DNA from: Candidatus Iainarchaeum sp.
Lineage (GTDB): Archaea; Iainarchaeota; Iainarchaeia; Iainarchaeales; VGJJ01
Direction: 5' to 3'
NCBI GenBank assembly: GCA_030688545.1
Contig: JAUYHT010000006.1
Location: 300,001-332,000, forward strand
Length of the DNA: 32,000 nucleotides
The position numbers and the translations under genes were made by a program. Positions 3,400 through 30,791 of the stretch are shown here, one piece after another (position 1 is the first letter of the stretch; each line of letters begins with the position of its first letter). The notes beneath the pieces are model-generated. The model was not told the DNA's origin, did not search any database, and was given only the letters and a program-made list of their open reading frames with translations.

Positions 3400-3483
3400 T
3401 GCACGGGGGAGGATTCGAACCTCCGAAGGCACTAAGCCACCAGATCTTAAGTCTGGCCCCTTTGACCGCTCGGGAACCCGTGC
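3400..3483 (-). tRNA. tRNA-Leu (anticodon UAA), class II with a long variable arm
   Basis: The reverse complement folds as a cloverleaf: acceptor GCACGGG/CCCGTGC, D arm CCC-GAGCGGTCAAA-GGG, anticodon arm CCAGA-CTTAAGA-TCTGG, variable arm with GGC/GCC stem, T arm GGAGG-TTCGAAT-CCTCC, discriminator A. No CCA is encoded. Confidence 0.92.
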
Positions 3484-16360: not shown

Positions 16361-16591
16361 TCAGGTCTTCACCTCGTTCCCCGAAGACGGGGTTTTCATC
16401 CCCTTCTCCTTCTGGATGGTTAGTATTCGCGCAATCTGCACCCGGATGGTGCGGGCTTTCCCGGGGTTCTCCGGGCGCGTGTTGGTTGACTTAACCGCCT
16501 GTTCCTTGGCGAGGGCGTTGCGCAGCTCCTTCAATTTGAGAGCCGCCTCATCCTTCCCCATGGCGCGGAGGTCATTGAGGCGCTTATTCAT
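16361..16591 (-). CDS. rpl29: 50S ribosomal protein uL29
   Basis: 76 aa, LRAMGKDEAALKLKELRNALAKEQ...RVQIARILT. Confidence 0.92.
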   Translation of the reverse strand: MNKRLNDLRAMGKDEAALKLKELRNALAKEQAVKSTNTRPENPGKARTIRVQIARILTIQKEKGMKTPSSGNEVKT

Positions 16592-17619
16592 GCCGCATCC
16601 TCCTTTTTCTCTTCCGGCGTATGAGTTTCCTCGATGGTCTTGGGTGGAATAGGGGGTTCCGTAGTTTCAGGAGTTGGGGTGCTCACATCAACGTCCGCAA
16701 TAGCAGGGGTCGTTTTCTCTTCAGAGGGGGGTGGTTCACTTATGATGGAAATATTTTGGTTCGTCACGGACTCTTTTTCTCCCGTTTCCTCGGTTGGGGG
16801 TTGAGATGGGGAATTGTCTTTCTTCTTTCGGGGCTTGCGGGCTTTGGTTTCCACCTTGGGGTTTGGTGATGGAAGGGCCTGTGATTCCGCCACTCCTTTT
16901 ATCGGAACGGATTCATTTTCAGGAGTGGGAGAGGTGGTTTCCGGGGTAGGCGTGTCTTCCCCTTGTGGAGGGGTTTCCACAGATGTTCCTTCGGGGGCGG
17001 CGGCAAGGGTTTTCCGCGCGGCAAGGAGCGGACGAATGTCCACTTTGTCAGGAAAATAGGTTCCAGGGGCGATGATGCGAACCGTCAGTCCGATGGCACC
17101 AACCTTGGGATACATGGTGACTTTGGCTTCGTCCACACGGAAGCGTTGTTCGCCCACTTTTTTCATGTAGCCCTTGGCAAATCGTACTTGTCGTTTCCGT
17201 CCTCCTTTCCCAGCCAGCTTTCCGGATAAAACGATTTCCACTCCCTCGGCGCCCGCGCGTTCAATATCCGAGAGGGTGCGGAAAGCAACACTTCTCCAGG
17301 TGAATCCGCGTTCGATGGAGTTCTTCACGCGATCCGCCACACTCTTGGCGTCCAGATCGGGGTTGGCGATTTCCCGTATTTCAAGCTGGGGGTTGTCTAC
17401 TCCATAATTCTTCTGGATGGCATCGGTGAGGGAGCGGATGTTCTGTCCCCCTTTTCCTATTGCTAATCCCGGTCGCGAGACATTTACGATGATGCGAGTT
17501 ACCAAGGGTGTTTTCACCATCTCAAAACCCGTGAACCCGGCGCGGCCGAGCTCGCTCTTGAGGTACTGGTGGAGTTGCACCTTCTTCAGTCCCTGTTTGA
17601 CGAATGTCTTTTCGATCAT
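16588..17619 (-). CDS. rps3: 30S ribosomal protein uS3 with ~130-aa P/T/E/S-rich C-terminal extension
   Basis: KH domain FVKQGLKKVQLHQYLKSELGRAGF...VNVSRPGLAIGKGGQNI. The extension is encoded at about 16591-16986. Confidence 0.94.
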   Translation of the reverse strand: MIEKTFVKQGLKKVQLHQYLKSELGRAGFTGFEMVKTPLVTRIIVNVSRPGLAIGKGGQNIRSLTDAIQKNYGVDNPQLEIREIANPDLDAKSVADRVKNSIERGFTWRSVAFRTLSDIERAGAEGVEIVLSGKLAGKGGRKRQVRFAKGYMKKVGEQRFRVDEAKVTMYPKVGAIGLTVRIIAPGTYFPDKVDIRPLLAARKTLAAAPEGTSVETPPQGEDTPTPETTSPTPENESVPIKGVAESQALPSPNPKVETKARKPRKKKDNSPSQPPTEETGEKESVTNQNISIISEPPPSEEKTTPAIADVDVSTPTPETTEPPIPPKTIEETHTPEEKKEDAA

Positions 17620-21698: not shown

Positions 21699-22244
21699 AT
21701 GCCTACCCGAAATGCGTTCAAACGGTTCGTTCAAAAGATGAGACATAGACGAATCTTGGGTGAAATATTGGATGAAAATAGAGGAAGACGCCCGACCGAT
21801 ATCCCATCCGAAGAGTTGATGCGCATCGGAGGAGCTACATCAAGGAGCCGAAAAAGGCCAGCTGAAGTTGCCGTCGGCCGATCAATGGCTGACTTTAAAC
21901 AATGGATCGAAAAGATCGCAATCTATGAAACAGGAAAGGCAATCGCAATTGAAAAAGGGACGAAAATAGTTAGAAAAGGTGCACAAAAAAAATTGAACAA
22001 ATCCCGCCCACGCGGAAAGCGCTCGCCCTACAAACTGACGGGTTTGGGAAACTCAGATGCCCGCGCAACATTGAAATGGAACCAAGAAATTAGGAAACGA
22101 TTGGCAGACATGTCTATTTTCCGGAGTCCCGAAGCCGGCCGGTTTTTGGCGGAACGAGCGATGGCCGAGCAATGGGAACGCTTGCCGGACGCCCGAAAAA
22201 AAGAAATGCTCGCATGGATGAAAAAGAACGGGCGCGCTAAATAG
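21699..22244 (+). CDS. hypothetical highly basic protein (181 aa), no family recognised
   Basis: ATG preceded by GGGGAGGG. K/R-rich throughout, with no TM segment or signal peptide. Plus strand, and visibly more A/T-rich than the ribosomal genes. A T6 tract follows the stop. Confidence 0.6.
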   Translation: MPTRNAFKRFVQKMRHRRILGEILDENRGRRPTDIPSEELMRIGGATSRSRKRPAEVAVGRSMADFKQWIEKIAIYETGKAIAIEKGTKIVRKGAQKKLNKSRPRGKRSPYKLTGLGNSDARATLKWNQEIRKRLADMSIFRSPEAGRFLAERAMAEQWERLPDARKKEMLAWMKKNGRAK

Positions 22245-22315: not shown

Positions 22316-24517
22316 TTACTTCTTCCGCGGCGCCACCCATACTTCATCGGGCCATTCCTCTTCGGTGACGCGGGGGGCCCAGGCTTGTGCGGGAAAAAAC
22401 CGGGAGCGGATCCAGAACCAGGCTCCCGCAAGGATGAGGAGCACTAATATTCCCAACCAAAAACCCCTGGCGCCGCTCACGAATGCAGTGGCTTGCGCCA
22501 CGGAGTTGGTGCTGGGCTTCAGGATGAGGGTGTGCGGCGCGGATTGGGTGGCGAATCCCACGAATTGGATAGGGATATTCCGCGGTTGCATCAACCAGGC
22601 GTCGGGCGAAATGGTATAGGTCACCCGTTTGGTTTCCATGGGAGCCAATGCAATGGGGGTTTCCCCTTCTATTTTCCAACCAGTGGGAACCGTGATCAGG
22701 ATATTCCCTTCATGAGACTGATTGGTCGTATTTTGGATGAGCACATCCACCGTGTACGCGTTGCGCGTCACGGGTTCCTCCACCACTTCCGGGGTGATGC
22801 GCACCTTTTCCTCGAATACGATGTTATACATGTGCGTCACGATGTACCCCTCGCTCGCCACCTGCAGAATGAGTTGGCTCCCATTCTGCAAAAGGGACAC
22901 CGGAAGAAGGATAATAGGTTCATCAAATCCCCCCACGCGAACGATTTTTTCGAATGTCTGGCCGGTAGGTTTCACGGTTAGTGTGAGAGTGGCATCGTGG
23001 GAATAGAAGCTCGTGTTCATCAGAGGAATGGCGAATGTGGATGCGTTTCCGATGACAATTTCGGATGGGGGGTTATTCAATTGGATGGGAGCTTGCGTGA
23101 CGCTCGAGAAGAACAATGGGCGATCTTCCCCCTCCAAAGCGCATCCTTCGATGAGGGGTTGAAGATGAAGAGTATTCACTTGGGAATTGGTCTCGACGCG
23201 TACCGCGTGAATGACGTGGGAAAGGGGGGGTACAGCGATGACAGATGGGATGATGATTCCGTCTTCCAGGGTTAGCGCGACGCGAGCCGTTTGAGTGAGA
23301 GGGTTTATCAGTTCGATGGGGATGGTTTGCCCTTCCTTCACTAATCCCCCATCGAGAATGATCTTGAAGTCGGCGCATTGTTCCCCTTGTGTCCCATGGA
23401 AAGTGAATGGGATGCGCATGTTGGGAATGGCGCACGCCGTGGTATCGGTGAAATGTCCTTGGATGGTGATGAACGCACTCCCGTCGAATGACACATCATT
23501 CCTGAATCCGGTGGATTGCAGGGAGAATTCCCCAGTCTTAGTTGAGCGAATGGTTTGGGGAGTGGCCAACAGGGAATAGTCAAGTTGGTAATTGACATCC
23601 TGTATCTGGAAGTGGTCCACATGGAAGGTTTGATCGGAGTTGTTCTGCAAGAATAGGGAATGGGTATTGTTTTCTCCTGCGCGCACGTCGAAATGGGCGG
23701 GTAGCACACGCAGTTCGGTGCAGGCGAAGACATTGGTGAATGTGTTTTCCACTGTCACCTCGAATGCCCCGTCGATGTCCCCGAATGAACAGTCCTGGCC
23801 ATTTGAAAAAGCCCCTCGGGTTTCCAGGAATACATGATCCACGACATCCTCGCTTACCCGTTGCGTGCGGATTTCAATGCGCACGGGTTGGCGAGTATGC
23901 CGCGGGATGCTTTTTATAAAATCCGCATCATTGAATCCGGGGTTCAATCGCGTGCTGAACTCGGGAGAATCATCAAAGACATTGAATCCTTGCAGGGTGA
24001 AATCCTCAGAGGAATCGTTGCGCAGGAAAACCGTGTGGATGATTGTGACATCCTCGGCCACCGAAACATCCGTGGTCTCGAATGAAATGGCTTTGCATAC
24101 GTCCGCCGAATCCTGGATAGTGACATCGATGGTGAAAGTGAGGTCAGCCAATGAACAAGAAGGGGTATTGTCGAATGCCCCCCGCAGGGAAACGTTGAAT
24201 GAGGTGGTTTGGTCTCCATTCACATCTTGAGTAGTGTATCGTAGGACCAGGTTCCCACTCCCATTTTCCTGGATCTCGTCGGGAAACGAATCTACCGTGA
24301 TATCAATTCGCGAATCATCCTCTTCCACCCGGACATCATCCAAATCAAAGGAATCATTCCCCTCATTCTCAATCCGAAGGGTCAGCACACGATTAATCCT
24401 GCTTTCGGATAAAACAACCGAATCAGGAGTGACGGTGATGTCATTGCAGGTGGCGGCAAAGGCCGGGGTGGCCAGCAAGAACAAACAAACTCCCAATATG
24501 CCTAGGAAACGGCGCAT
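22316..24517 (-). CDS. large surface protein: signal peptide, four Cys-bracketed beta modules, Cys-free beta modules including a CARDB/NEW3-like one, C-terminal TM anchor
   Basis: Signal peptide MRRFLGILGVCLFLLATPAFA/AT. Cys pairs are at track-ORF residues 31/128, 148/250, 273/369 and 388/466. There is a recurring RGAF(D/S)N..C(S)(L/F)(A/G)D module end. About 11 N-x-S/T sequons. NAYTVDVLIQNTTNQSHEGNILITVPTGWKI resembles NEW3/CARDB. TM segment is GFWLGILVLLILAGAWFWI. The track start at 24538 is GTG. The first ATG at 24517 lies about 27 nt downstream of a TATA-like ATATTTAAAGG. Confidence 0.8.
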   Translation of the reverse strand: MRRFLGILGVCLFLLATPAFAATCNDITVTPDSVVLSESRINRVLTLRIENEGNDSFDLDDVRVEEDDSRIDITVDSFPDEIQENGSGNLVLRYTTQDVNGDQTTSFNVSLRGAFDNTPSCSLADLTFTIDVTIQDSADVCKAISFETTDVSVAEDVTIIHTVFLRNDSSEDFTLQGFNVFDDSPEFSTRLNPGFNDADFIKSIPRHTRQPVRIEIRTQRVSEDVVDHVFLETRGAFSNGQDCSFGDIDGAFEVTVENTFTNVFACTELRVLPAHFDVRAGENNTHSLFLQNNSDQTFHVDHFQIQDVNYQLDYSLLATPQTIRSTKTGEFSLQSTGFRNDVSFDGSAFITIQGHFTDTTACAIPNMRIPFTFHGTQGEQCADFKIILDGGLVKEGQTIPIELINPLTQTARVALTLEDGIIIPSVIAVPPLSHVIHAVRVETNSQVNTLHLQPLIEGCALEGEDRPLFFSSVTQAPIQLNNPPSEIVIGNASTFAIPLMNTSFYSHDATLTLTVKPTGQTFEKIVRVGGFDEPIILLPVSLLQNGSQLILQVASEGYIVTHMYNIVFEEKVRITPEVVEEPVTRNAYTVDVLIQNTTNQSHEGNILITVPTGWKIEGETPIALAPMETKRVTYTISPDAWLMQPRNIPIQFVGFATQSAPHTLILKPSTNSVAQATAFVSGARGFWLGILVLLILAGAWFWIRSRFFPAQAWAPRVTEEEWPDEVWVAPRKK

Positions 24518-24537: not shown

Positions 24538-24548
24538 CCTTTAAATAT
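24538..24548 (-). promoter_or_regulatory. TATA-like box (ATATTTAAAGG on the minus strand) upstream of the surface-protein gene
   Basis: Centred about 27 nt upstream of ATG 24517, which fits a leaderless or near-leaderless transcript. Confidence 0.35.
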
Positions 24549-24575
24549 CATTACTTTAACCCGTGAATCAGTTAC

Positions 24576-24683
24576 TCGAACTTTTTAGGAAAAAGTTCGA
24601 TCAAAAAACGACTATTTTAAAGAAAAAATCAATCCAAAAACGACTATTTCTAAGAAAAAAAGGTCAATCAAAAACGACCAGCT
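24576..24683. repeat. hairpin plus three 32-bp tandem repeats (core AAAAAGTTCGATCAAAAA), locus 2
   Basis: 11-bp inverted repeat TCGAACTTTTT-AGG-AAAAAGTTCGA (24576-24600). Units are at 24588-24619, 24620-24651 and 24652-24683. The last unit overlaps the TAG stop of the Pro-rich gene. The architecture is the same as at 3486-3592. Confidence 0.85.
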
Positions 24684-26586
24684 ATGGGCCGTGCTCTTCC
24701 TCAATCATTTTCTTCAATCGACGTAATATTTCTTTTTTGGGGTCGTCGACTGGTTCCTCCGGCACGGCTTGGGCCACTTGTTTTTCCTGTCGAGTGAGGG
24801 TTTGATTCAGGGCATCTATTGAAGCCTGCTCCTTCTCCTCCTGCTCGTGTTCCTTCTCTTTCTGTTCAAGATATGCCCAGTCCGCGGGGGTGAGATTTTC
24901 CTGATCCTCTTCGTCCGCTTGGGAAGGGATTTGGGTTTCCTTTGGTTGAAGAGGAGAGAGTGGAGATTTGGTTTCGGGAGGCGCGGAAGAAATGGGTCGT
25001 GGTTCGTCATCCATTCCTTTGGGGGCCAGGGGAGGTATCGCCACTTCTCCGGATTCCTTATTCGGGCGCGCGGGAGGAGGGGTAATTTCGGGGGTGTTTA
25101 ACCTTTCTCGGGGGACCGACCAGGGAGGAACATAGGGGCGGGGGCCACGCGGGGCTGATTCGAGAGGAGTATGAGACGGATCTCGAAGCCCCTTGGGTTG
25201 AATTGGGAATTTTTCTTGGGAGCTATCCATTTCGGATTTGTATGGCAATGGAGCTGTTTCCGGGACAGGAGGATTGGGGGCTATCGTGGGCGCCTCTTCT
25301 TGGCGTTGGGCATCGATGTGTTGCAAATAGGATGTTGGTTTTGCTTGACCTGTTTCCATGTTGGGTGTCACTGTTTGAGGGACTGGCGAATTCCCTTCGT
25401 TTCGCGTGGATGGGGTGTTTTCCACCCTCCTCCCCGATGGGGGAAACGTTTCCTGCGTCGGAAGGTGTGCCTCTTTCAAAGGGGGTGGGGCCATGGGGTC
25501 CGTCCTTTTTTCAGGGGAAACCGATATTTTTTCTTCACGGGGACGCGGTATTTCGACTTGGAGGGAGGGGATGTCAGCGTACTTTTTTCCCTCTTCTTGC
25601 ATTTCATAGGGAGTGGGATTCCCCTGCGGGGCGATGATGGGTTCCGCCGATCCGAATCCTTCCCACTTGGACGTATTATTGGTCGTCGTCCCCCGCGCAT
25701 CCTTTTTCCAAGGTGGAGCAAAAGATGGGGGTGCGGCGTCTTTCCCAGGAAGTGAACGAATATCCTTGGATGGGGTAACCACCTGGTTGGTTGATGGTGG
25801 TTTCAAATGTGGAGACGCCGGGGCTGAGGGTGGGGGAAAGGGTGATGTAAAAGAAGGAGGGGTCGTGGGGGTGGGGGTGGGAATCCCAACCCTCGTCGGT
25901 TGCAACACGATATCTTTTTCGGTGCTCGGAGGCATCGGTGCACGTTCGGGGATGATCGGCACAGAGGATGAGGGAGTAGAAGAAAGGGGGAAATCCTTTT
26001 TTTGTCCAGGAAGGATGGCTCGGGTTGGGCTGACGGTTCCTCGTGGGGCCATTTCCTGTTTGGGTCGCATGAAGGGGAGCATTTGGGCGAATGTGAATGG
26101 TTTTTTGGGTGGCGTGTTTAATGGCTTTGGATTCGATGCGATGGCGCGTTGGAGGGGGGTGGGCGGCTGTGCAGGTATAGTCGGCAATGGAGAAGCAGGG
26201 AGGAGAGATGGTCCCTGCGTCCGAATGGGAGAATAGAGTGGCGCATTTCCCGGTGATAAATTTTTTTGGGTCGATGAGAGACGGGGGGAAATGGACATGT
26301 TCTTGTTGGCGAATGGGCGCGCAGGAGTTATCGTTCCATGGGCACTCCCCTGCATCATGGTGGCTAACTGCTGGCGCATTTGACCTTGGGCGTTGGAGCT
26401 GGCGCGCGTGGGTTGGGAGGTAATCAAGGGTTGTCGTCTGGGTTTTGGTTTTCCGAATATCGCTTGGGCAACGCGCTGTCCCAATCCGGGTTGCGGTAAT
26501 TTGGGAACGAGTTCTCCGTGGGAAATCTTTTCCCGACGTTGCTTGAGGAATTCGTCGATCTCATCCACATCCTCTGAAACGGGCAT
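24682..26586 (-). CDS. proline-rich, low-complexity (probably intrinsically disordered) protein, 634 aa, no signal peptide or TM
   Basis: A 1.9-kb open frame with an ATG start about 25 nt downstream of TTTTTTATAG. The ends are acidic and helical-looking (N: EDVDEIDEFLKQRREK; C: EQKEKEHEQEEKEQASIDALNQTLTRQEK...LRRLKKMIEEEHGP). They flank about 550 aa of P/T/S/Q-rich sequence. Confidence 0.75.
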   Translation of the reverse strand: MPVSEDVDEIDEFLKQRREKISHGELVPKLPQPGLGQRVAQAIFGKPKPRRQPLITSQPTRASSNAQGQMRQQLATMMQGSAHGTITPARPFANKNMSISPRLSSTQKNLSPGNAPLYSPIRTQGPSLLPASPLPTIPAQPPTPLQRAIASNPKPLNTPPKKPFTFAQMLPFMRPKQEMAPRGTVSPTRAILPGQKKDFPLSSTPSSSVPIIPERAPMPPSTEKDIVLQPTRVGIPTPTPTTPPSFTSPFPPPSAPASPHLKPPSTNQVVTPSKDIRSLPGKDAAPPSFAPPWKKDARGTTTNNTSKWEGFGSAEPIIAPQGNPTPYEMQEEGKKYADIPSLQVEIPRPREEKISVSPEKRTDPMAPPPLKEAHLPTQETFPPSGRRVENTPSTRNEGNSPVPQTVTPNMETGQAKPTSYLQHIDAQRQEEAPTIAPNPPVPETAPLPYKSEMDSSQEKFPIQPKGLRDPSHTPLESAPRGPRPYVPPWSVPRERLNTPEITPPPARPNKESGEVAIPPLAPKGMDDEPRPISSAPPETKSPLSPLQPKETQIPSQADEEDQENLTPADWAYLEQKEKEHEQEEKEQASIDALNQTLTRQEKQVAQAVPEEPVDDPKKEILRRLKKMIEEEHGP

Positions 26587-26606
26587 AGCTACCCAGACTT
26601 TTCCGA

Positions 26607-26616
26607 CTATAAAAAA
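26607..26616 (-). promoter_or_regulatory. TATA box (TTTTTTATAG on the minus strand) for the Pro-rich gene, probably a leaderless mRNA
   Basis: Centred about 25 nt upstream of ATG 26586, with no Shine-Dalgarno-like sequence in between. Confidence 0.4.
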
Positions 26617-26794
26617 GAACGCTCATGCGCCAACCAAAAATCCCCAGCGGGATCCCCACGACTCCCAATGCAATCTCGGTAGGATCGGGTTCAGCCGCAT
26701 TCATGAACGGAGGAGCTGTCGATCAAAAGAATTTCTCTTGCGGGAAAAATCAGTCTATTAAAAAAGGGCACCGCCTATTGGAGTAAGTGGTCTC

Positions 26795-27292
26795 ATGCGC
26801 CAAAAATTCATCGACTGGTTTTTTTATGATCCCTTGTTCAAAAAGTTGAACGTGCGGACCGTATTAGATGTGGGATCGGAAAATGGTAAGATGATTAAAT
26901 ATTTCTCCAGACGGGGAGCTAAAGTCACGGCGATCGACCTGGAGCCCACGCGACCCGAAATCAAAAAGATGGACTTTTTGAATAATGTTTTCGCGGACGG
27001 ACAGTTTGATTTGGTGTACAGTGCGCACACCATTGAACACATTCCCACCCCGGAAAAATTTTCTTTGGAAATGCTGCGTGTATCAAAACAATACGTGTGT
27101 CTTGTAGCTCCCTTACCGGGCAAGCAATTCTGGGATCAGCCCGATCATATTCGACCGTACACAAAAGAAACATTAAAACGCATTTTTCACTTGAATAAGT
27201 GGATCATCTGCAAAGAAATACGTTTTCCCGGGTTTGAGCCCATCGCTCTCGTGTTGTTTGACAAGAAGGATTCACGCCTCGTTCGAAATTGA
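26795..27292 (+). CDS. small class I SAM-dependent methyltransferase (Methyltransf_11/23-like)
   Basis: Motif I VLDVGSENGKM, acidic post-I AIDLEP, then FDLVYSAHTIEHIPTPEKF. 165 aa, more A/T-rich than its neighbours. Confidence 0.75.
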   Translation: MRQKFIDWFFYDPLFKKLNVRTVLDVGSENGKMIKYFSRRGAKVTAIDLEPTRPEIKKMDFLNNVFADGQFDLVYSAHTIEHIPTPEKFSLEMLRVSKQYVCLVAPLPGKQFWDQPDHIRPYTKETLKRIFHLNKWIICKEIRFPGFEPIALVLFDKKDSRLVRN

Positions 27293-27776: not shown

Positions 27777-28712
27777 TTACTTGCGGCGCTGCGAATAGGC
27801 CAACAGCAATCCCGCGAGGACAAGGACGATTCCCAGTCCAATCACAGGATTGGTAATGAAACCCAAGAGTCCGGTGGCGGGCGAACCAGCATTCGGGACC
27901 TCGTTCGCGATGGGTAAAATACTCCCGCGCGGAATGCCCGCTTCGCCCAATGCGATTTCTGTGGGATTGGGTTCCACCGTGTTCACGAACGTGGGGGCTG
28001 ATGTCAAGGGGGTATTCGTTCCATCTCCTGACGCGGGTGGGGACAAAGAAAGATTGTTCCCTTGCCATAAAGGATTGAATGAGAACAGGGGCACAGGGCC
28101 GCTTGATCCATCGTCATCATCATCCGTGGACGATTGCGTGCTGGGGCCTTCACAATTATCCCCTTCGCAGATCGTGGGATTAGTGTTCTGCCCATTCGTC
28201 GGAGTGCATCCGATGGTGCCGACGGCGCAGGGCGCTGGCTGGCAATTAATGGTTCCCTCTACTGGACAGGGGTCCTTGGGAGGGCAATTGGAATCGCCGT
28301 TTAACTCACAAGGATTAGGTTGATTGCAATCCGGTTCATTCACCGGACATGGATCCGTTACTTCTTTATCGCGTATCCGGCGGCCGCTAGAGCCAGGTCC
28401 GCTGGGTCCTTGAGGCGCGGGGGCCGCATCGATGCTCTGGGCCGATGTATTTCCTGTAGAAGGTGAAGATGATTCGGTGTTACTGGCAGGTGGCGCGGGT
28501 GCGGAATTGTTTCCCCCATCATTGCTTGAGGTTGTGCGCGTTGATTCATTTGTTGGCGTGGTGGGTGCCGGAGCCGATTCCGTGGCACCGGTGCCTGAAG
28601 ATCCCGAATCATTTGTCGTCGCCGGAGCGTCGGGCGCGCTGTCGGCGAATCCAAAGGGTGACAGCATCAGGCTCATCACGATGAGGACCATTCCCAGTTT
28701 CATTCCGTTCAT
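27777..28712 (-). CDS. secreted S/T/P-rich protein with a 10-Cys module, poly-Asp tract and C-terminal hydrophobic anchor plus basic tail
   Basis: Signal peptide MNGMKLGMVLIVMSLMLSPFGFA/DS. The Cys module is C-x6-C-x5-C-x7-C-x5-C-x7-C-x4-C-x6-C-x12-C-x4-C (nt 28152-28349). There is a DDDDDG tract. C-terminus is GSPATGLLGFITNPVIGLGIVLVLAGLLLAYSQRRK. The first ATG at 28712 is preceded by GGAAGGAG. The track start at 28718 is TTG. Confidence 0.75.
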   Translation of the reverse strand: MNGMKLGMVLIVMSLMLSPFGFADSAPDAPATTNDSGSSGTGATESAPAPTTPTNESTRTTSSNDGGNNSAPAPPASNTESSSPSTGNTSAQSIDAAPAPQGPSGPGSSGRRIRDKEVTDPCPVNEPDCNQPNPCELNGDSNCPPKDPCPVEGTINCQPAPCAVGTIGCTPTNGQNTNPTICEGDNCEGPSTQSSTDDDDDGSSGPVPLFSFNPLWQGNNLSLSPPASGDGTNTPLTSAPTFVNTVEPNPTEIALGEAGIPRGSILPIANEVPNAGSPATGLLGFITNPVIGLGIVLVLAGLLLAYSQRRK

Positions 28713-28818
28713 TCTCAATCAGCTCCTTCCAATTAGATGATGGTGATTTCAATCTTTTAATGTATACGTTTTAAATGAAATTGCGTTAACGACCTCAATT
28801 CATACGGCGATTGTAGAA

Positions 28819-30449: not shown

Positions 30450-30791
30450 CTAGTGATTGCTGGCCAGGTTCCAGACGGCTTTAATCCCCACGATCACGGC
30501 AGCGGGTGCCATGAGGGCGGCGATGTAGGCGAATATGCTTCCCAGCGGGGGTCCCACGATGGGGATCAGGGTCCAATTGACGGCTCCCGCCACCAACAGG
30601 GCGATGACCGCTACCAGGAAGGATGTAATCTCTTTATCGCTGATGTTCAGCAGTCCGATGATGGCACCCAAGATCACGAAGATCAATGGTAACCAGTTCG
30701 CGGCCTCGCCGAAGCTTTGCCCCAGGATTCCAGCGATGATGGCGAGAACCACCCCGATGATGAATGCCCAGGATCCAATCTTCTGCTCCAT
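30450..30791 (-). CDS. small polytopic membrane protein (113 aa, about 4 TM)
   Basis: ATG preceded by GAGGAGGTG. Hydrophobic throughout. No family recognised. Confidence 0.6.
   Translation of the reverse strand: MEQKIGSWAFIIGVVLAIIAGILGQSFGEAANWLPLIFVILGAIIGLLNISDKEITSFLVAVIALLVAGAVNWTLIPIVGPPLGSIFAYIAALMAPAAVIVGIKAVWNLASNH

What the first reader, a model, noticed from the sequence alone, without database searches (positions are those of the whole stretch)
24682..26586. 634-aa proline-rich, eukaryote-like disordered protein with structured acidic ends and no export signal
A stop-free 1.9-kb frame encodes about 550 residues dominated by P, T, S and Q. It has no hydrophobic segment and no signal peptide. 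Short charged helical-looking termini cap it. It contains many PxxP, PPxF, PPW and TPY-type short motifs, for example PPSFAPPW, PRPYVPPW and NPTPYEM. Proteins of this kind are common as scaffolds in eukaryotes and uncommon in archaea. The gene sits immediately upstream of the large surface protein, separated only by the tandem-repeat element, and appears to be leaderless (TATA about 25 nt from the ATG). Whether it is a cytoplasmic scaffold, a non-classically exported matrix or stalk component, or an interaction hub is open.
Basis: partly seen in the sequence, partly recalled or inferred. Interest (0 to 1): 0.6.

Follow-up and report, generated by a model that had tools for sequence, protein, structure and literature searches.

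The report
Conserved disordered scaffold protein, Iainarchaeota-specific
This is a real, selected gene for a mostly disordered, proline-rich protein with helical ends and a fixed series of short tryptophan motifs; it occurs only in one small group of DPANN archaea, always beside their major surface-protein gene, and its function has not been tested.

Summary
Window 24682-26586 (minus strand) is a 634-codon ORF with 18.5% Pro, no Cys and no hydrophobic segment. It is a real gene. Orthologues 27-43% identical occur in about 12 MAG species, three of them labelled Candidatus Iainarchaeum. dN/dS between two close relatives is 0.23. A TATA box about 20-23 nt before the ATG is conserved in all 13 loci, which suggests a leaderless mRNA.

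AlphaFold gives three N-terminal helices, about 475 disordered residues and two C-terminal helices. The disordered region carries a collinear series of conserved short motifs: an aromatic-basic motif, Y-x-D/E-IP, PY-x-PPWV-x-R, SGEV and others. The protein ends in a near-invariant cationic amphipathic helix, EILRRLKKMM.

The gene always lies directly upstream of a multi-Ig-like, membrane-anchored surface protein, between the S10 and L3 ribosomal genes. That surface protein's cytoplasmic tail ends in a conserved acidic-PWMxP motif.

Nothing matched in Pfam, NCBIfam, PHROGs, PADLOC, PDB sequences or Foldseek. An exhaustive HMMER search of 1.84 billion proteins found 11 family representatives.

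My best reading, which is inferred and not shown, is a cytoplasmic multivalent adaptor or hub tied to the envelope module, with a PopZ-like architecture but no homology to PopZ. Interest is moderate.

The parts
26600..26625 (-). Promoter of the target gene. The TATA-like box TTTTTTATAG lies at 26616-26607 and ends 20 nt before the ATG, a placement that suggests a leaderless mRNA.
   Evidence: Sequence read. An equivalent box (TTTTTATTCTCA or TTTTTATAGTC) sits at the same distance in all 13 loci.
24682..26586 (-). CDS of the 634-aa disordered protein (stop codon 24682-24684).
   Evidence: Orthologues. dN/dS 0.23. The exact protein is on record in two public assemblies.
26350..26586 (-). N-terminal module, aa 1-79, with three helices (5-22, 35-44, 64-79) and conserved loops. 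Family signature: MPxPEEVDEINEYLKARRxKQxLGELPxxDxTPxFVKRxxxAxFGKK...LxSxQPTYASxxAQxAVRKQLDEIM.
   Evidence: Alignment A5 has 68% mean column identity. AF2 pLDDT is about 80-87 in the full-length model. Modelled alone, pLDDT is 72 and pTM 0.27, so the helices are predicted but a compact fold is not confident. No non-synonymous change between L004 and L005.
24913..26340 (-). Intrinsically disordered Pro/Ser/Ala/Thr-rich region, aa 83-558. It is basic in its first half and close to neutral or slightly acidic in its second half.
   Evidence: pLDDT below 50. Pooled family linker composition: P 20.6, S 12.2, A 10.9, T 9.2%. Charge pattern is conserved. Linker length ranges from 194 to 479 aa across the family.
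26059..26106 (-). Aromatic-basic motif, aa 161-176, KKPFTFAQMLPFMRPK. The equivalent in relatives is FWKK, PFWKKLF or GFWNKPK.
25702..25734 (-). First PPW motif, aa 285-295, APPSFAPPWKK.
   Evidence: Conserved with L001. Trp census.
25540..25584 (-). Y-x-D/E-IP motif, aa 335-349, KYADIPSLQVEIPRP.
   Evidence: Present in 7 of 15 family members at the same relative position. Alignment.
25075..25140 (-). Universal motif PY-x-PPW(V)-x-R, aa 483-504, RPYVPPWSVPRERLNTPEITPP.
   Evidence: P487, P488 and W489 are invariant in 15 sequences. Motif census.
25027..25056 (-). SGEV motif, aa 511-520, ESGEVAIPPL. The family form is SGE[VI]xV[DE]EL.
   Evidence: S512 and E514 are at least 90% conserved..
24766..24912 (-). 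Acidic helical module, aa 559-607. Window sequence: EEDQENLTPADWAYLEQKEKEHEQEEKEQASIDALNQTLTRQ. Family form: EEISEEEALExLPFEEVEGLSxSDLxYLExKEKEH...LKxxLxxQS. Net charge of the whole C-terminal module is -10 to -15.
   Evidence: Alignment A6. AF2 helix 567-607 with pLDDT about 78-93. Charge.
24691..24747 (-). C-terminal cationic amphipathic helix, aa 614-632, DDPKKEILRRLKKMIEEEH. It is near-invariant in the family.
   Evidence: K617, I620, L621, R623, L624 and M627 are invariant. It is the highest hydrophobic-moment segment in 12 of 13 members, with muH 0.78-0.89 and net charge 0 to +4. AF2 helix 616-631, pLDDT about 91.
24590..24678 (-). Tandem repeat (32-35 bp x 2.7) specific to this organism. 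Each copy carries an oligo-T run (TAGTCGTTTTTG). It is probably a stack of archaeal-type terminators between the target gene and the next promoter.
   Evidence: Absent from the 10 related loci whose downstream intergenic region was read. The terminator function is inferred.
24539..24567 (-). The surface-protein gene's own conserved promoter (CACGGGTTAAAGTAATGATATTTAAAGG). Its TATA box ends 21 nt before ATG 24517.
   Evidence: Conserved in the 10 related loci that include this intergenic region; L012 ends before it.
22316..24517 (-). Downstream partner gene 'Surf740', 733 aa from ATG 24517. It has a signal peptide, multiple Ig-like domains, a C-terminal TM anchor and a cytoplasmic tail ending ...EEEWPDEVWVAPRKK (relatives: acidic run + (E)PWM[HNK]P + basic).
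   Evidence: Adjacent to the target in every locus that covers both genes. Gene callers on public contigs also aa.
27777..28718 (-). Upstream module gene 'Sec313'. It has a signal peptide, S/T/P-rich and Cys-rich regions, and a C-terminal SPATGLLGF + TM + RRK anchor or sorting signal.
30450..30791 (-). Upstream module gene 'TM113', a small polytopic membrane protein that is 66-78% identical (74-78% in most loci) across the clade.

Best explanation
SHOWN. The ORF is a real gene under purifying selection. It defines a small orphan protein family found in MAGs that are labelled Candidatus Iainarchaeum where any taxon is given (DPANN archaea). The family shares a fixed tripartite plan:
1. An N-terminal module of about 80 aa with three conserved helices.
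2. A Pro/Ser/Ala/Thr-rich disordered region of 194-479 aa whose length and sequence drift freely. It keeps a collinear series of short motifs: aromatic-basic FWKK type, Y-x-D/E-IP, PY-x-PPWV-x-R, [KL]PW and SGEVxVEEL.
3. An acidic helical module that ends in a near-invariant cationic amphipathic helix, EILRRLKKMM.
Charge is segregated in the same way in all members: a basic first half of the linker and an acidic C-terminal module. The gene has its own conserved promoter placed for a leaderless mRNA. It is locked in the gene order S10 - TM113 - (LemA-TPM) - (Sec~310) - target - Surf740 - L3.

INFERRED. The protein stays in the cytoplasm and works as a multivalent, membrane-proximal adaptor or hub. 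The two conserved helical ends would dock specific partners or self-associate. The Trp-centred motifs strung along the flexible linker would give several low-affinity binding sites. The most likely clients are the products of the neighbouring envelope genes. The prime candidate is the cytoplasmic tail of the adjacent Ig-like surface (S-layer-type) protein, which itself ends in a conserved acidic-PWMxP motif. The net effect would be to organise or cluster envelope proteins from the inside. The plan resembles the bacterial hub PopZ (N-terminal client helix, Pro-rich IDR, C-terminal helical oligomeriser), but there is no homology.
For: Real gene: an orthologue of 646 aa at 34% identity over 97% of the length; 11 representatives in an exhaustive HMMER scan of 1.84e9 proteins; 11 loci in GTDB genomes, three titled Candidatus Iainarchaeum. 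dN/dS between L004 and L005 is 0.23 overall, 0 non-synonymous changes in the N-terminal module and 0.25 in the linker, at dS about 0.2.

Architecture: AF2 helices and the pLDDT profile; alignments A2 and A4-A6; collinear motif order in all 15 members. Of 46 linker Trp residues, 54% are preceded by P and 33% by PP, against about 20% and 4% expected from composition.

Cytoplasmic location: no hydrophobic segment in any of 13 members (maximum KD19 0.86 or less). The N-terminus is conserved from residue 2 and a conserved TATA box about 20-23 nt upstream leaves no room for a signal peptide. There are few N-glycosylation sequons and they are not conserved (0-6 per protein).

Link to the envelope module: the target is adjacent to Surf740 in every locus that covers both. 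The conserved Surf740 cytoplasmic tail motif (E)PWM[HNK]P resembles the target's PPWV and KPWV motifs.

Specific partner binding for the C-terminal helix: six invariant positions across proteins only about 30% identical overall.

PopZ domain plan for comparison: PMC9512792.
Against: - No partner, localisation or expression data exist. The link to Surf740 rests on gene adjacency and a motif resemblance only.
- The two genes have separate conserved promoters, and in this window a probable terminator stack lies between them. Co-transcription is therefore not required.
- The locus lies inside the ribosomal-protein supercluster, so conserved gene order could reflect general rigidity of that region rather than a functional link.
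- The basic linker would equally suit binding to nucleic acid or anionic lipid.
- AF2 gives low pTM (0.25-0.27), so neither end is shown to be a folded domain.
- There is no homology to PopZ or any other hub.
Confidence: 0.4

Rival explanations
1. Exported envelope component. The protein leaves the cell by a non-classical route and forms a flexible Pro/Thr/Ser-rich stalk, spacer or matrix under or within the surface layer built by the neighbouring genes.
For: The P/T/S-rich composition resembles extracellular linker regions. All three other genes of the conserved module encode membrane or secreted proteins. The window copy has 6 N-x-S/T sequons against 2.5 expected.
Against: No signal peptide or hydrophobic segment in 13 of 13 members. 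The conserved leaderless start excludes a missed N-terminal extension. The termini are highly charged K/R/E-rich helices. Sequons number 0-4 in relatives and are not conserved. No signal-independent secretion route is known for such archaeal proteins (own knowledge).
Confidence: 0.12
2. Cell-division or membrane-remodelling adaptor. The C-terminal helix would act as an MIT-interacting (MIM1-like) or similar docking peptide. The Y-x-D/E-IP-x-L motif would mimic the FtsZ C-terminal peptide (D-I-P-x-F-L) that binds SepF or FtsA-type anchors.
For: The terminal helix I-L-R-R-L-K-K-M has the hydrophobic-x-x-R-L-x-x-hydrophobic spacing of MIM1 (sequence). Y-x-[DE]-IP occurs in 7 of 15 members. A long linker followed by a terminal peptide is the usual layout of such adaptors (own knowledge).
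Against: Neither the strict nor the relaxed MIM1 consensus is matched in any of 13 members. There is no Snf7, CdvA, SepF, FtsZ or ZipA domain. The DIP motif is missing from half of the family. The presence of an MIT-domain ATPase in these genomes was not tested. The literature search gave nothing specific for Iainarchaeota.
Confidence: 0.1
3. Nucleic-acid- or ribosome-associated basic disordered protein. The basic Pro-rich linker would bind RNA, DNA or ribosomes, and the position inside the ribosomal-protein supercluster would reflect co-expression with the translation apparatus.
For: The gene sits between S10 and L3 in all loci. The first half of the linker carries +9 to +24 net charge in all members. 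Ribosomal protein S3 of the same organism carries a P/T/E/S-rich tail of about 140 aa.
Against: No recognisable RNA- or DNA-binding motif or domain. The immediate conserved neighbours are envelope genes, not translation genes. The Trp-Pro motifs and the acidic C-terminal module are not typical of nucleic-acid binders (inference).
Confidence: 0.1
4. Not a gene. The long open frame would be a compositional artefact of GC- and C-rich DNA.
For: Low-complexity composition. The opposite strand also shows ORFs of about 200 aa.
Against: The 646-codon stop-free run compares with a maximum of 284 in 300 shuffles. The frame is kept across more than 12 species despite many indels. dN/dS is 0.23. Promoter and start are conserved. 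The other five frames have 11-16 stops.
Confidence: 0.01

Closest known systems
PopZ (polar organizing protein Z, Caulobacterales): a disordered hub and condensate scaffold
   Same: The domain logic is the same. [quoted passage not shown] In both, composition and charge pattern of the linker are conserved rather than its sequence.
   Different: No sequence homology: no Pfam hit in 15 members at E<=1. The target is 2-4 times longer. Its IDR length is not conserved (194-479 aa), whereas PopZ has a conserved 78-aa IDR. Its IDR is basic to neutral rather than strongly acidic. The IDR carries conserved Trp-based motifs. The organism is an archaeon. Self-assembly is untested.
Pro-rich spacer proteins of bacterial envelopes and divisomes (TonB, ZipA, FtsK/FtsN linkers)
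   Same: A long Pro-rich flexible or extended segment connects functional ends, and the genes are associated with envelope functions.
   Different: Those proteins have an N-terminal TM anchor and a folded C-terminal domain (TonB_C, ZipA_C). The target has neither.
ESCRT-III / CdvA-type proteins with terminal docking peptides (MIM, E3B)
   Same: A terminal short amphipathic helix follows a flexible Pro-rich stretch, with R-L at its core.
   Different: No Snf7 or CdvA core. The MIM1 consensus is not met. The partner has not been looked for.
Eukaryotic SLiM-rich scaffold IDPs
   Same: Long disorder, multivalent Pro/aromatic short motifs, conserved motif order and divergent spacers.
   Different: No homology to any eukaryotic protein or to any Pfam family. 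PxxP and PPxF-type matches are expected by chance at 18-20% Pro. The motifs that are actually conserved are clade-specific (PY-x-PPWV-x-R and others).

Membership tests
PopZ family | Sequence homology to the PopZ model in Pfam-A | tested here: not met
   No Pfam family reached E<=1 consistently in 15 members, and none was PopZ.
PopZ family | Tripartite plan: N-terminal helix, Pro-rich IDR, C-terminal helical region | tested here: met
   AF2 helices 5-79 and 567-631 flank pLDDT<50 residues 83-558. PopZ plan from PMC9512792.
PopZ family | Acidic IDR of conserved length | tested here: not met
   Linker is 194-479 aa with net charge +1 to +29.
PopZ family | Self-oligomerisation, condensate formation and client recruitment | not testable with these tools
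   Needs biochemistry, imaging or multimer modelling.
ESCRT-III / MIM1-bearing proteins | Snf7-type helical core | tested here: not met
   No Pfam hit. No PDB sequence or fold match.
ESCRT-III / MIM1-bearing proteins | C-terminal MIM1 consensus [DE]xxLxxRLxxL[KR] | tested here: not met
   Strict and relaxed regular expressions fail in 13 of 13 members. Only the hydrophobic-xx-RL-xx-hydrophobic core is shared.
ESCRT-III / MIM1-bearing proteins | MIT-domain AAA ATPase (Vps4/CdvC) encoded in the same genome | not tested
Classically secreted or anchored archaeal surface proteins | N-terminal Sec/Tat signal peptide or a TM or lipid anchor | tested here: not met
   Maximum KD19 is 0.33 in the window protein and 0.86 or less in all 13 members.
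TonB / ZipA-type Pro-rich spacer proteins | N-terminal TM anchor plus a folded C-terminal domain (TonB_C or ZipA_C) | tested here: not met
Intrinsically disordered, SLiM-bearing scaffold (generic class) | Predicted disorder over most of the length | tested here: met
   413 of 634 residues have pLDDT<50. All regions fall on the disordered side of the charge-hydropathy boundary.
Intrinsically disordered, SLiM-bearing scaffold (generic class) | Short conserved islands in conserved order within divergent spacers, under purifying selection | tested here: met
   motif collinearity; dN/dS 0.23-0.25.
Intrinsically disordered, SLiM-bearing scaffold (generic class) | Demonstrated binding partners for the motifs | not testable with these tools
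   No interaction data.
FtsZ C-terminal-peptide mimic | D-I-P-x-[FY]-L-[RK] core present throughout the family | tested here: inconclusive
   Y-x-[DE]-IP is found in 7 of 15 members. It is followed by S/P-L rather than x-F-L-R.

The most novel reading that the evidence does not exclude
This would be an archaeal counterpart of bacterial hub or condensate scaffolds such as PopZ. In this reading, a block-polyampholyte disordered protein self-associates through its helical ends under the membrane of an ultrasmall DPANN cell. It uses its Trp-Pro motifs to capture the PWMxP cytoplasmic tails of the S-layer-type protein, and so patterns the envelope, or a host-contact or division site, from the inside. 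It would be the first SLiM-based 'inside-out' organiser of an archaeal surface layer.
Probability: 0.12. Interest if true: 0.75.

Novelty: new variant of a known kind. Interest (0 to 1): 0.45.

Why it matters
Long disordered proteins built from short linear motifs are regarded as mainly eukaryotic, and few prokaryotic examples are understood. PopZ is the textbook case. This family shows the evolutionary signature of such proteins: conserved motif order, free-drifting spacers, conserved charge blocks and purifying selection. It occurs in uncultivated DPANN archaea with small genomes and is fixed next to the gene for what is probably their main surface protein.

If the inferred link holds, it would give a concrete, testable handle on how these cells organise their envelope. 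It would also provide a compact archaeal model for SLiM-based scaffolding. If the link does not hold, the family is still a well-defined clade marker and a useful annotation for what is currently an unannotated hypothetical protein.

Tried and rejected
- Full-length Pfam, NCBIfam, PHROGs and PADLOC scans found nothing.
- PDB sequence searches with full-length, N-terminal and C-terminal profiles gave only insignificant coiled-coil or low-complexity matches, best E 0.08.
- Foldseek against the PDB, with the full model and with the N-terminal model, found nothing.
- The word-indexed protein search with the full-length family alignment was swamped by Pro-rich words and returned only the two known hits. 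With the N-terminal alignment it returned nothing, although true members exist, so this is a limitation of the tool.
- The GTDB scan with the two-sequence alignment found nothing. The 11-sequence alignment was too divergent for pattern extraction. A four-sequence sub-alignment worked.
- Both metagenome-contig scans found nothing.
- The MIM1 hypothesis was rejected at the consensus level.
- Sequon counting as a test of export was uninformative.
- The charge-hydropathy plot discriminates weakly, since L3 also falls on the 'disordered' side.
- L010 and L014, from the same MAG, looked like possible paralogues. They are overlapping contig ends with one SNP.
- Literature searches for Iainarchaeota S-layer or ESCRT biology returned nothing specific.
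Full report
**1. Observation**

The window holds an ATG-initiated ORF at 24682..26586 on the minus strand, encoding 634 aa. Composition is P 18.5%, S 8.2, E 8.2, T 7.4, A 7.1 and Q 6.6%, with no Cys. The most hydrophobic 19-residue stretch has a mean Kyte-Doolittle value of 0.33, so there is no signal peptide or TM helix. The stop-free run of 646 codons compares with a maximum of 284 in 300 shuffles of the local DNA. The five other frames each contain 11-16 stops. There is no large internal tandem repeat, only two tiny ones, so this is non-repetitive low complexity. The window is the archaeal ribosomal-protein supercluster: EF-1alpha, S10, L3, L4, L2, L22, S3, SecY, S4, RpoD and S2.

**2. It is a real, conserved gene**

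- A word-indexed search found an identical fragment and one 646-aa relative at 34% identity over 97% coverage.
- An exhaustive HMMER profile search of 1.84 billion representatives returned only 11 proteins. All share the same N-terminal, central and C-terminal islands.
- A pattern scan of GTDB species genomes gave 11 loci. Three are titled 'Candidatus Iainarchaeum archaeon', one 'Thaumarchaeota archaeon' and the rest 'uncultured archaeon'. Family members are 384-659 aa, 11.5-19.5% Pro, and all lack Cys.
- Between two close relatives (L004 and L005, dS about 0.2), dN/dS is 0.23 overall. The N-terminal module has no non-synonymous change, and the linker and the C-terminal part are each at about 0.25. 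For comparison, the surface protein is at 0.085 and L3 at 0.008. The frame is therefore translated and selected, with relaxed but real constraint on the linker.
- The exact window protein is also on record in two public assemblies.

**3. Anatomy**

AlphaFold2 with the 11-sequence alignment gives helices 5-22, 35-44 and 64-79 (pLDDT about 80-87). Residues about 83-558 are almost all below pLDDT 50. A weak helix lies at 420-431. A long helix at 567-607 and a terminal helix at 616-631 have pLDDT about 78-93. Overall pTM is 0.25. The N-terminal 85 aa modelled alone give the same helices, with pLDDT 72 but pTM 0.27, so a compact fold is not established.

The family alignments and a motif census show one collinear syntax in all 15 sequences:
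- N1-N4: the N-terminal module.
- a: [YF]Pxxxx W, present in a subset.
- b: aromatic-basic FWKK, PFWKKLF, or KKPFTFAQMLPFM in the window.
- c: Y-x-[DE]-IP, present in 7 of 15.
- d: PY-x-PPWV-x-R, universal, with P487-P488-W489 invariant.
- e: [KL]PW.
- f: SGE[VI]xV[DE]EL.
- g-i: the acidic module EEISEEEALExLPFEEVEGLSxSDLxYLExKEKEH...LKxxLxxQS.
- j: D[PE]K[KQ]EILRRLKKMMEEE.

Of 46 Trp residues in the linkers, 54% follow P and 33% follow PP, against about 20% and 4% expected. K or R occurs within three residues after the Trp in 63%. The terminal helix has the highest hydrophobic moment in 12 of 13 members (muH 0.78-0.89, net charge 0 to +4). Six of its positions are invariant.

Charge is segregated in the same way in every member. 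The first half of the linker is +9 to +24, the second half about -9 to +5, and the C-terminal module -10 to -15.

**4. Locus**

Gene order is EF1A - S10 - TM113 - (LemA - TPM) - (Sec~310) - target - Surf740 - L3. This order was found by tblastn in every related locus that covers the region. Identities to the window proteins are:

| Protein | Identity to window |
|---|---|
| EF1A | about 85% |
| S10 | about 79% |
| TM113 | 66-78% (74-78% in most loci) |
| L3 | about 65% |
| Surf740 | 35-39% |
| Target | 27-43% |

Upstream of the target's ATG, all 13 loci carry a conserved TATA-like box (TTTTTATTCTCA, or TTTTTATAGTC in the window clade) that ends about 20-23 nt before the ATG. Archaeal transcription usually starts about 25 nt downstream of the TATA centre (own knowledge), so this placement implies a leaderless mRNA. 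The N-terminal extensions called on P0003, P0007 and P0008 ('...VFILK...') are simply translations of this TATA box.

Immediately after the stop codon, the related loci that extend far enough carry a second conserved promoter (TTAACGGGTCAAAGTAATGCCTTTTAAAGG). It lies about 22-27 nt before the surface-protein ATG, and the gap between the two genes is 42-73 nt in most loci. In the window, the true Surf740 start is therefore ATG 24517 rather than GTG 24538, which matches the public gene calls.

The window alone has about 100 nt inserted between the stop codon and that promoter. This is a 32-35-bp unit repeated 2.7 times, each copy carrying TAGTCGTTTTTG. I read it as stacked oligo-T terminators, which is an inference.

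Surf740 has a signal peptide, Ig-like domains (FixG_C, HYDIN/VesB-like and DUF1573 hits) and a C-terminal TM helix. Its cytoplasmic tail of 30-55 aa ends in an acidic run followed by (E)PWM[HNK]P and basic residues, and this is conserved across the related loci that include the gene's 3' end. It is a plausible S-layer-type protein, but that is not proven. It has no PDB relative by sequence.

**5. What it is not**

- No hit in Pfam or NCBIfam for the window protein. No consistent Pfam hit for any of 15 members at E<=1.
- Nothing for the full-length protein in PHROGs or PADLOC; the C-terminal 80 aa alone gave two insignificant PHROG matches of unknown function, best E 0.025.
- Nothing significant in PDB sequence searches or by Foldseek.
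- The MIM1 consensus is not met.
- It is not a classical secreted protein.
- 'Eukaryote-like' therefore describes composition and architecture only.

**6. Most likely mechanism (inferred, confidence about 0.4)**

I read the protein as a cytoplasmic, membrane-proximal multivalent adaptor or hub. The near-invariance of the terminal helix and the N-terminal module, in proteins that are otherwise about 30% identical, argues for specific protein partners or self-association rather than generic membrane binding. The linker supplies reach and several Trp-centred docking sites. The conserved adjacency to Surf740, together with the conserved acidic-PWMxP motif in Surf740's tail, makes the envelope module the best candidate client. 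The tail motif resembles the target's own PPWV and KPWV motifs and is electrostatically complementary to the basic linker.

The plan parallels PopZ: N-terminal client helix, Pro-rich IDR and C-terminal helical oligomeriser (PMC9512792). It differs in size, in the sign of the IDR charge, in having variable IDR length, in carrying embedded motifs, and in lacking any homology.

Rivals are exported stalk or matrix (0.12), division or ESCRT-type adaptor (0.10), nucleic-acid or ribosome-associated basic IDP (0.10), and artefact (below 0.01). The gene's reality and its disordered, motif-bearing architecture are established at above 0.95. Only the function is uncertain.

**7. Novelty and interest**

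This is an unannotated orphan family restricted to a narrow DPANN clade. It has the full evolutionary signature of a SLiM-based disordered scaffold and is fixed beside the main surface-protein gene. That makes it a new variant of a known kind, the prokaryotic disordered hub, rather than a categorically new system. No function is demonstrated. Interest is moderate (0.45). It would rise to about 0.75 if the inside-out envelope-organising hub model were confirmed, which I put at about 12% probability.

Noticed in passing
window 24590-24678: A 32-35-bp tandem unit repeated 2.7 times, each copy with an oligo-T run (TAGTCGTTTTTG). It lies between the target's stop codon and the Surf740 promoter. It is absent from the 10 related loci whose downstream intergenic region was read, so it is a recent insertion in this lineage, plausibly stacked archaeal terminators.
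   Followed up: partly
window 26795-27292 (+): A SAM-dependent methyltransferase gene on the opposite strand sits between the Sec313 gene and the target. It has no counterpart in any related locus and is present only in contigs of the same organism (L015, L016).
   Followed up: partly
window 27777-28718 (-); L001 1513-2226: Secreted S/T/P-rich protein with a Cys-rich middle. Its conserved C-terminus, SPATGL(L/A)GF + TM helix + RRK(K), looks like a sortase- or archaeosortase-type sorting signal. NCBIfam gives only a weak LAVTG-motif hit (E 0.02).
   Followed up: no
window 22316-22420 (C-terminal tail of Surf740); L002-L010 and L013 equivalents: The cytoplasmic tail of the Ig-like surface protein ends in a conserved acidic run plus (E)PWM[HNK]P plus basic residues. 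In the window it reads EEEWPDEVWVAPRKK. A conserved cytoplasmic motif on a putative S-layer protein implies an intracellular reader.
   Followed up: partly
window 30450-30791 (-): A small polytopic membrane protein (113 aa) is 74-78% identical in most related loci (66% in L013), where L3 is only about 65%. There is no family assignment. A weak FtsK_4TM similarity (E 0.011) falls below the Pfam cut-off.
   Followed up: no
window 24517 vs 24538; P0003, P0007, P0008: Start-codon issues. The mechanical ORF for Surf740 starts at GTG 24538, but homologues and the conserved promoter point to ATG 24517. Database N-terminal extensions of three family members ('..VFILK..') are translations of the conserved TATA box.
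   Followed up: yes
window 16588-17619 (-): Ribosomal protein S3 carries a P/T/E/S-rich C-terminal tail of about 140 aa, against about 45 aa in the L002 relative. This suggests an organism-wide tendency to expand Pro/Thr/Ser/Glu-rich disordered segments.
   Followed up: partly
L010 1-160 and L014 1611-1770: Two contigs of the same MAG end or begin inside the target gene's N-terminus. Their sequences are nearly identical and overlap with one SNP (E19G). This is an assembly break or strain variation inside the gene, not a pair of paralogues.
   Followed up: yes
window 3400-3483 (-): A single tRNA gene is the only Rfam hit at gathering threshold in the whole window.
   Followed up: no
window 21699-22244 (+): A 181-aa ORF on the opposite strand lies between Surf740 and L3. 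It has weak homologues at a different position (upstream of EF1A) in L003, L006 and L012, so this gene has moved. It has no family assignment.
   Followed up: no
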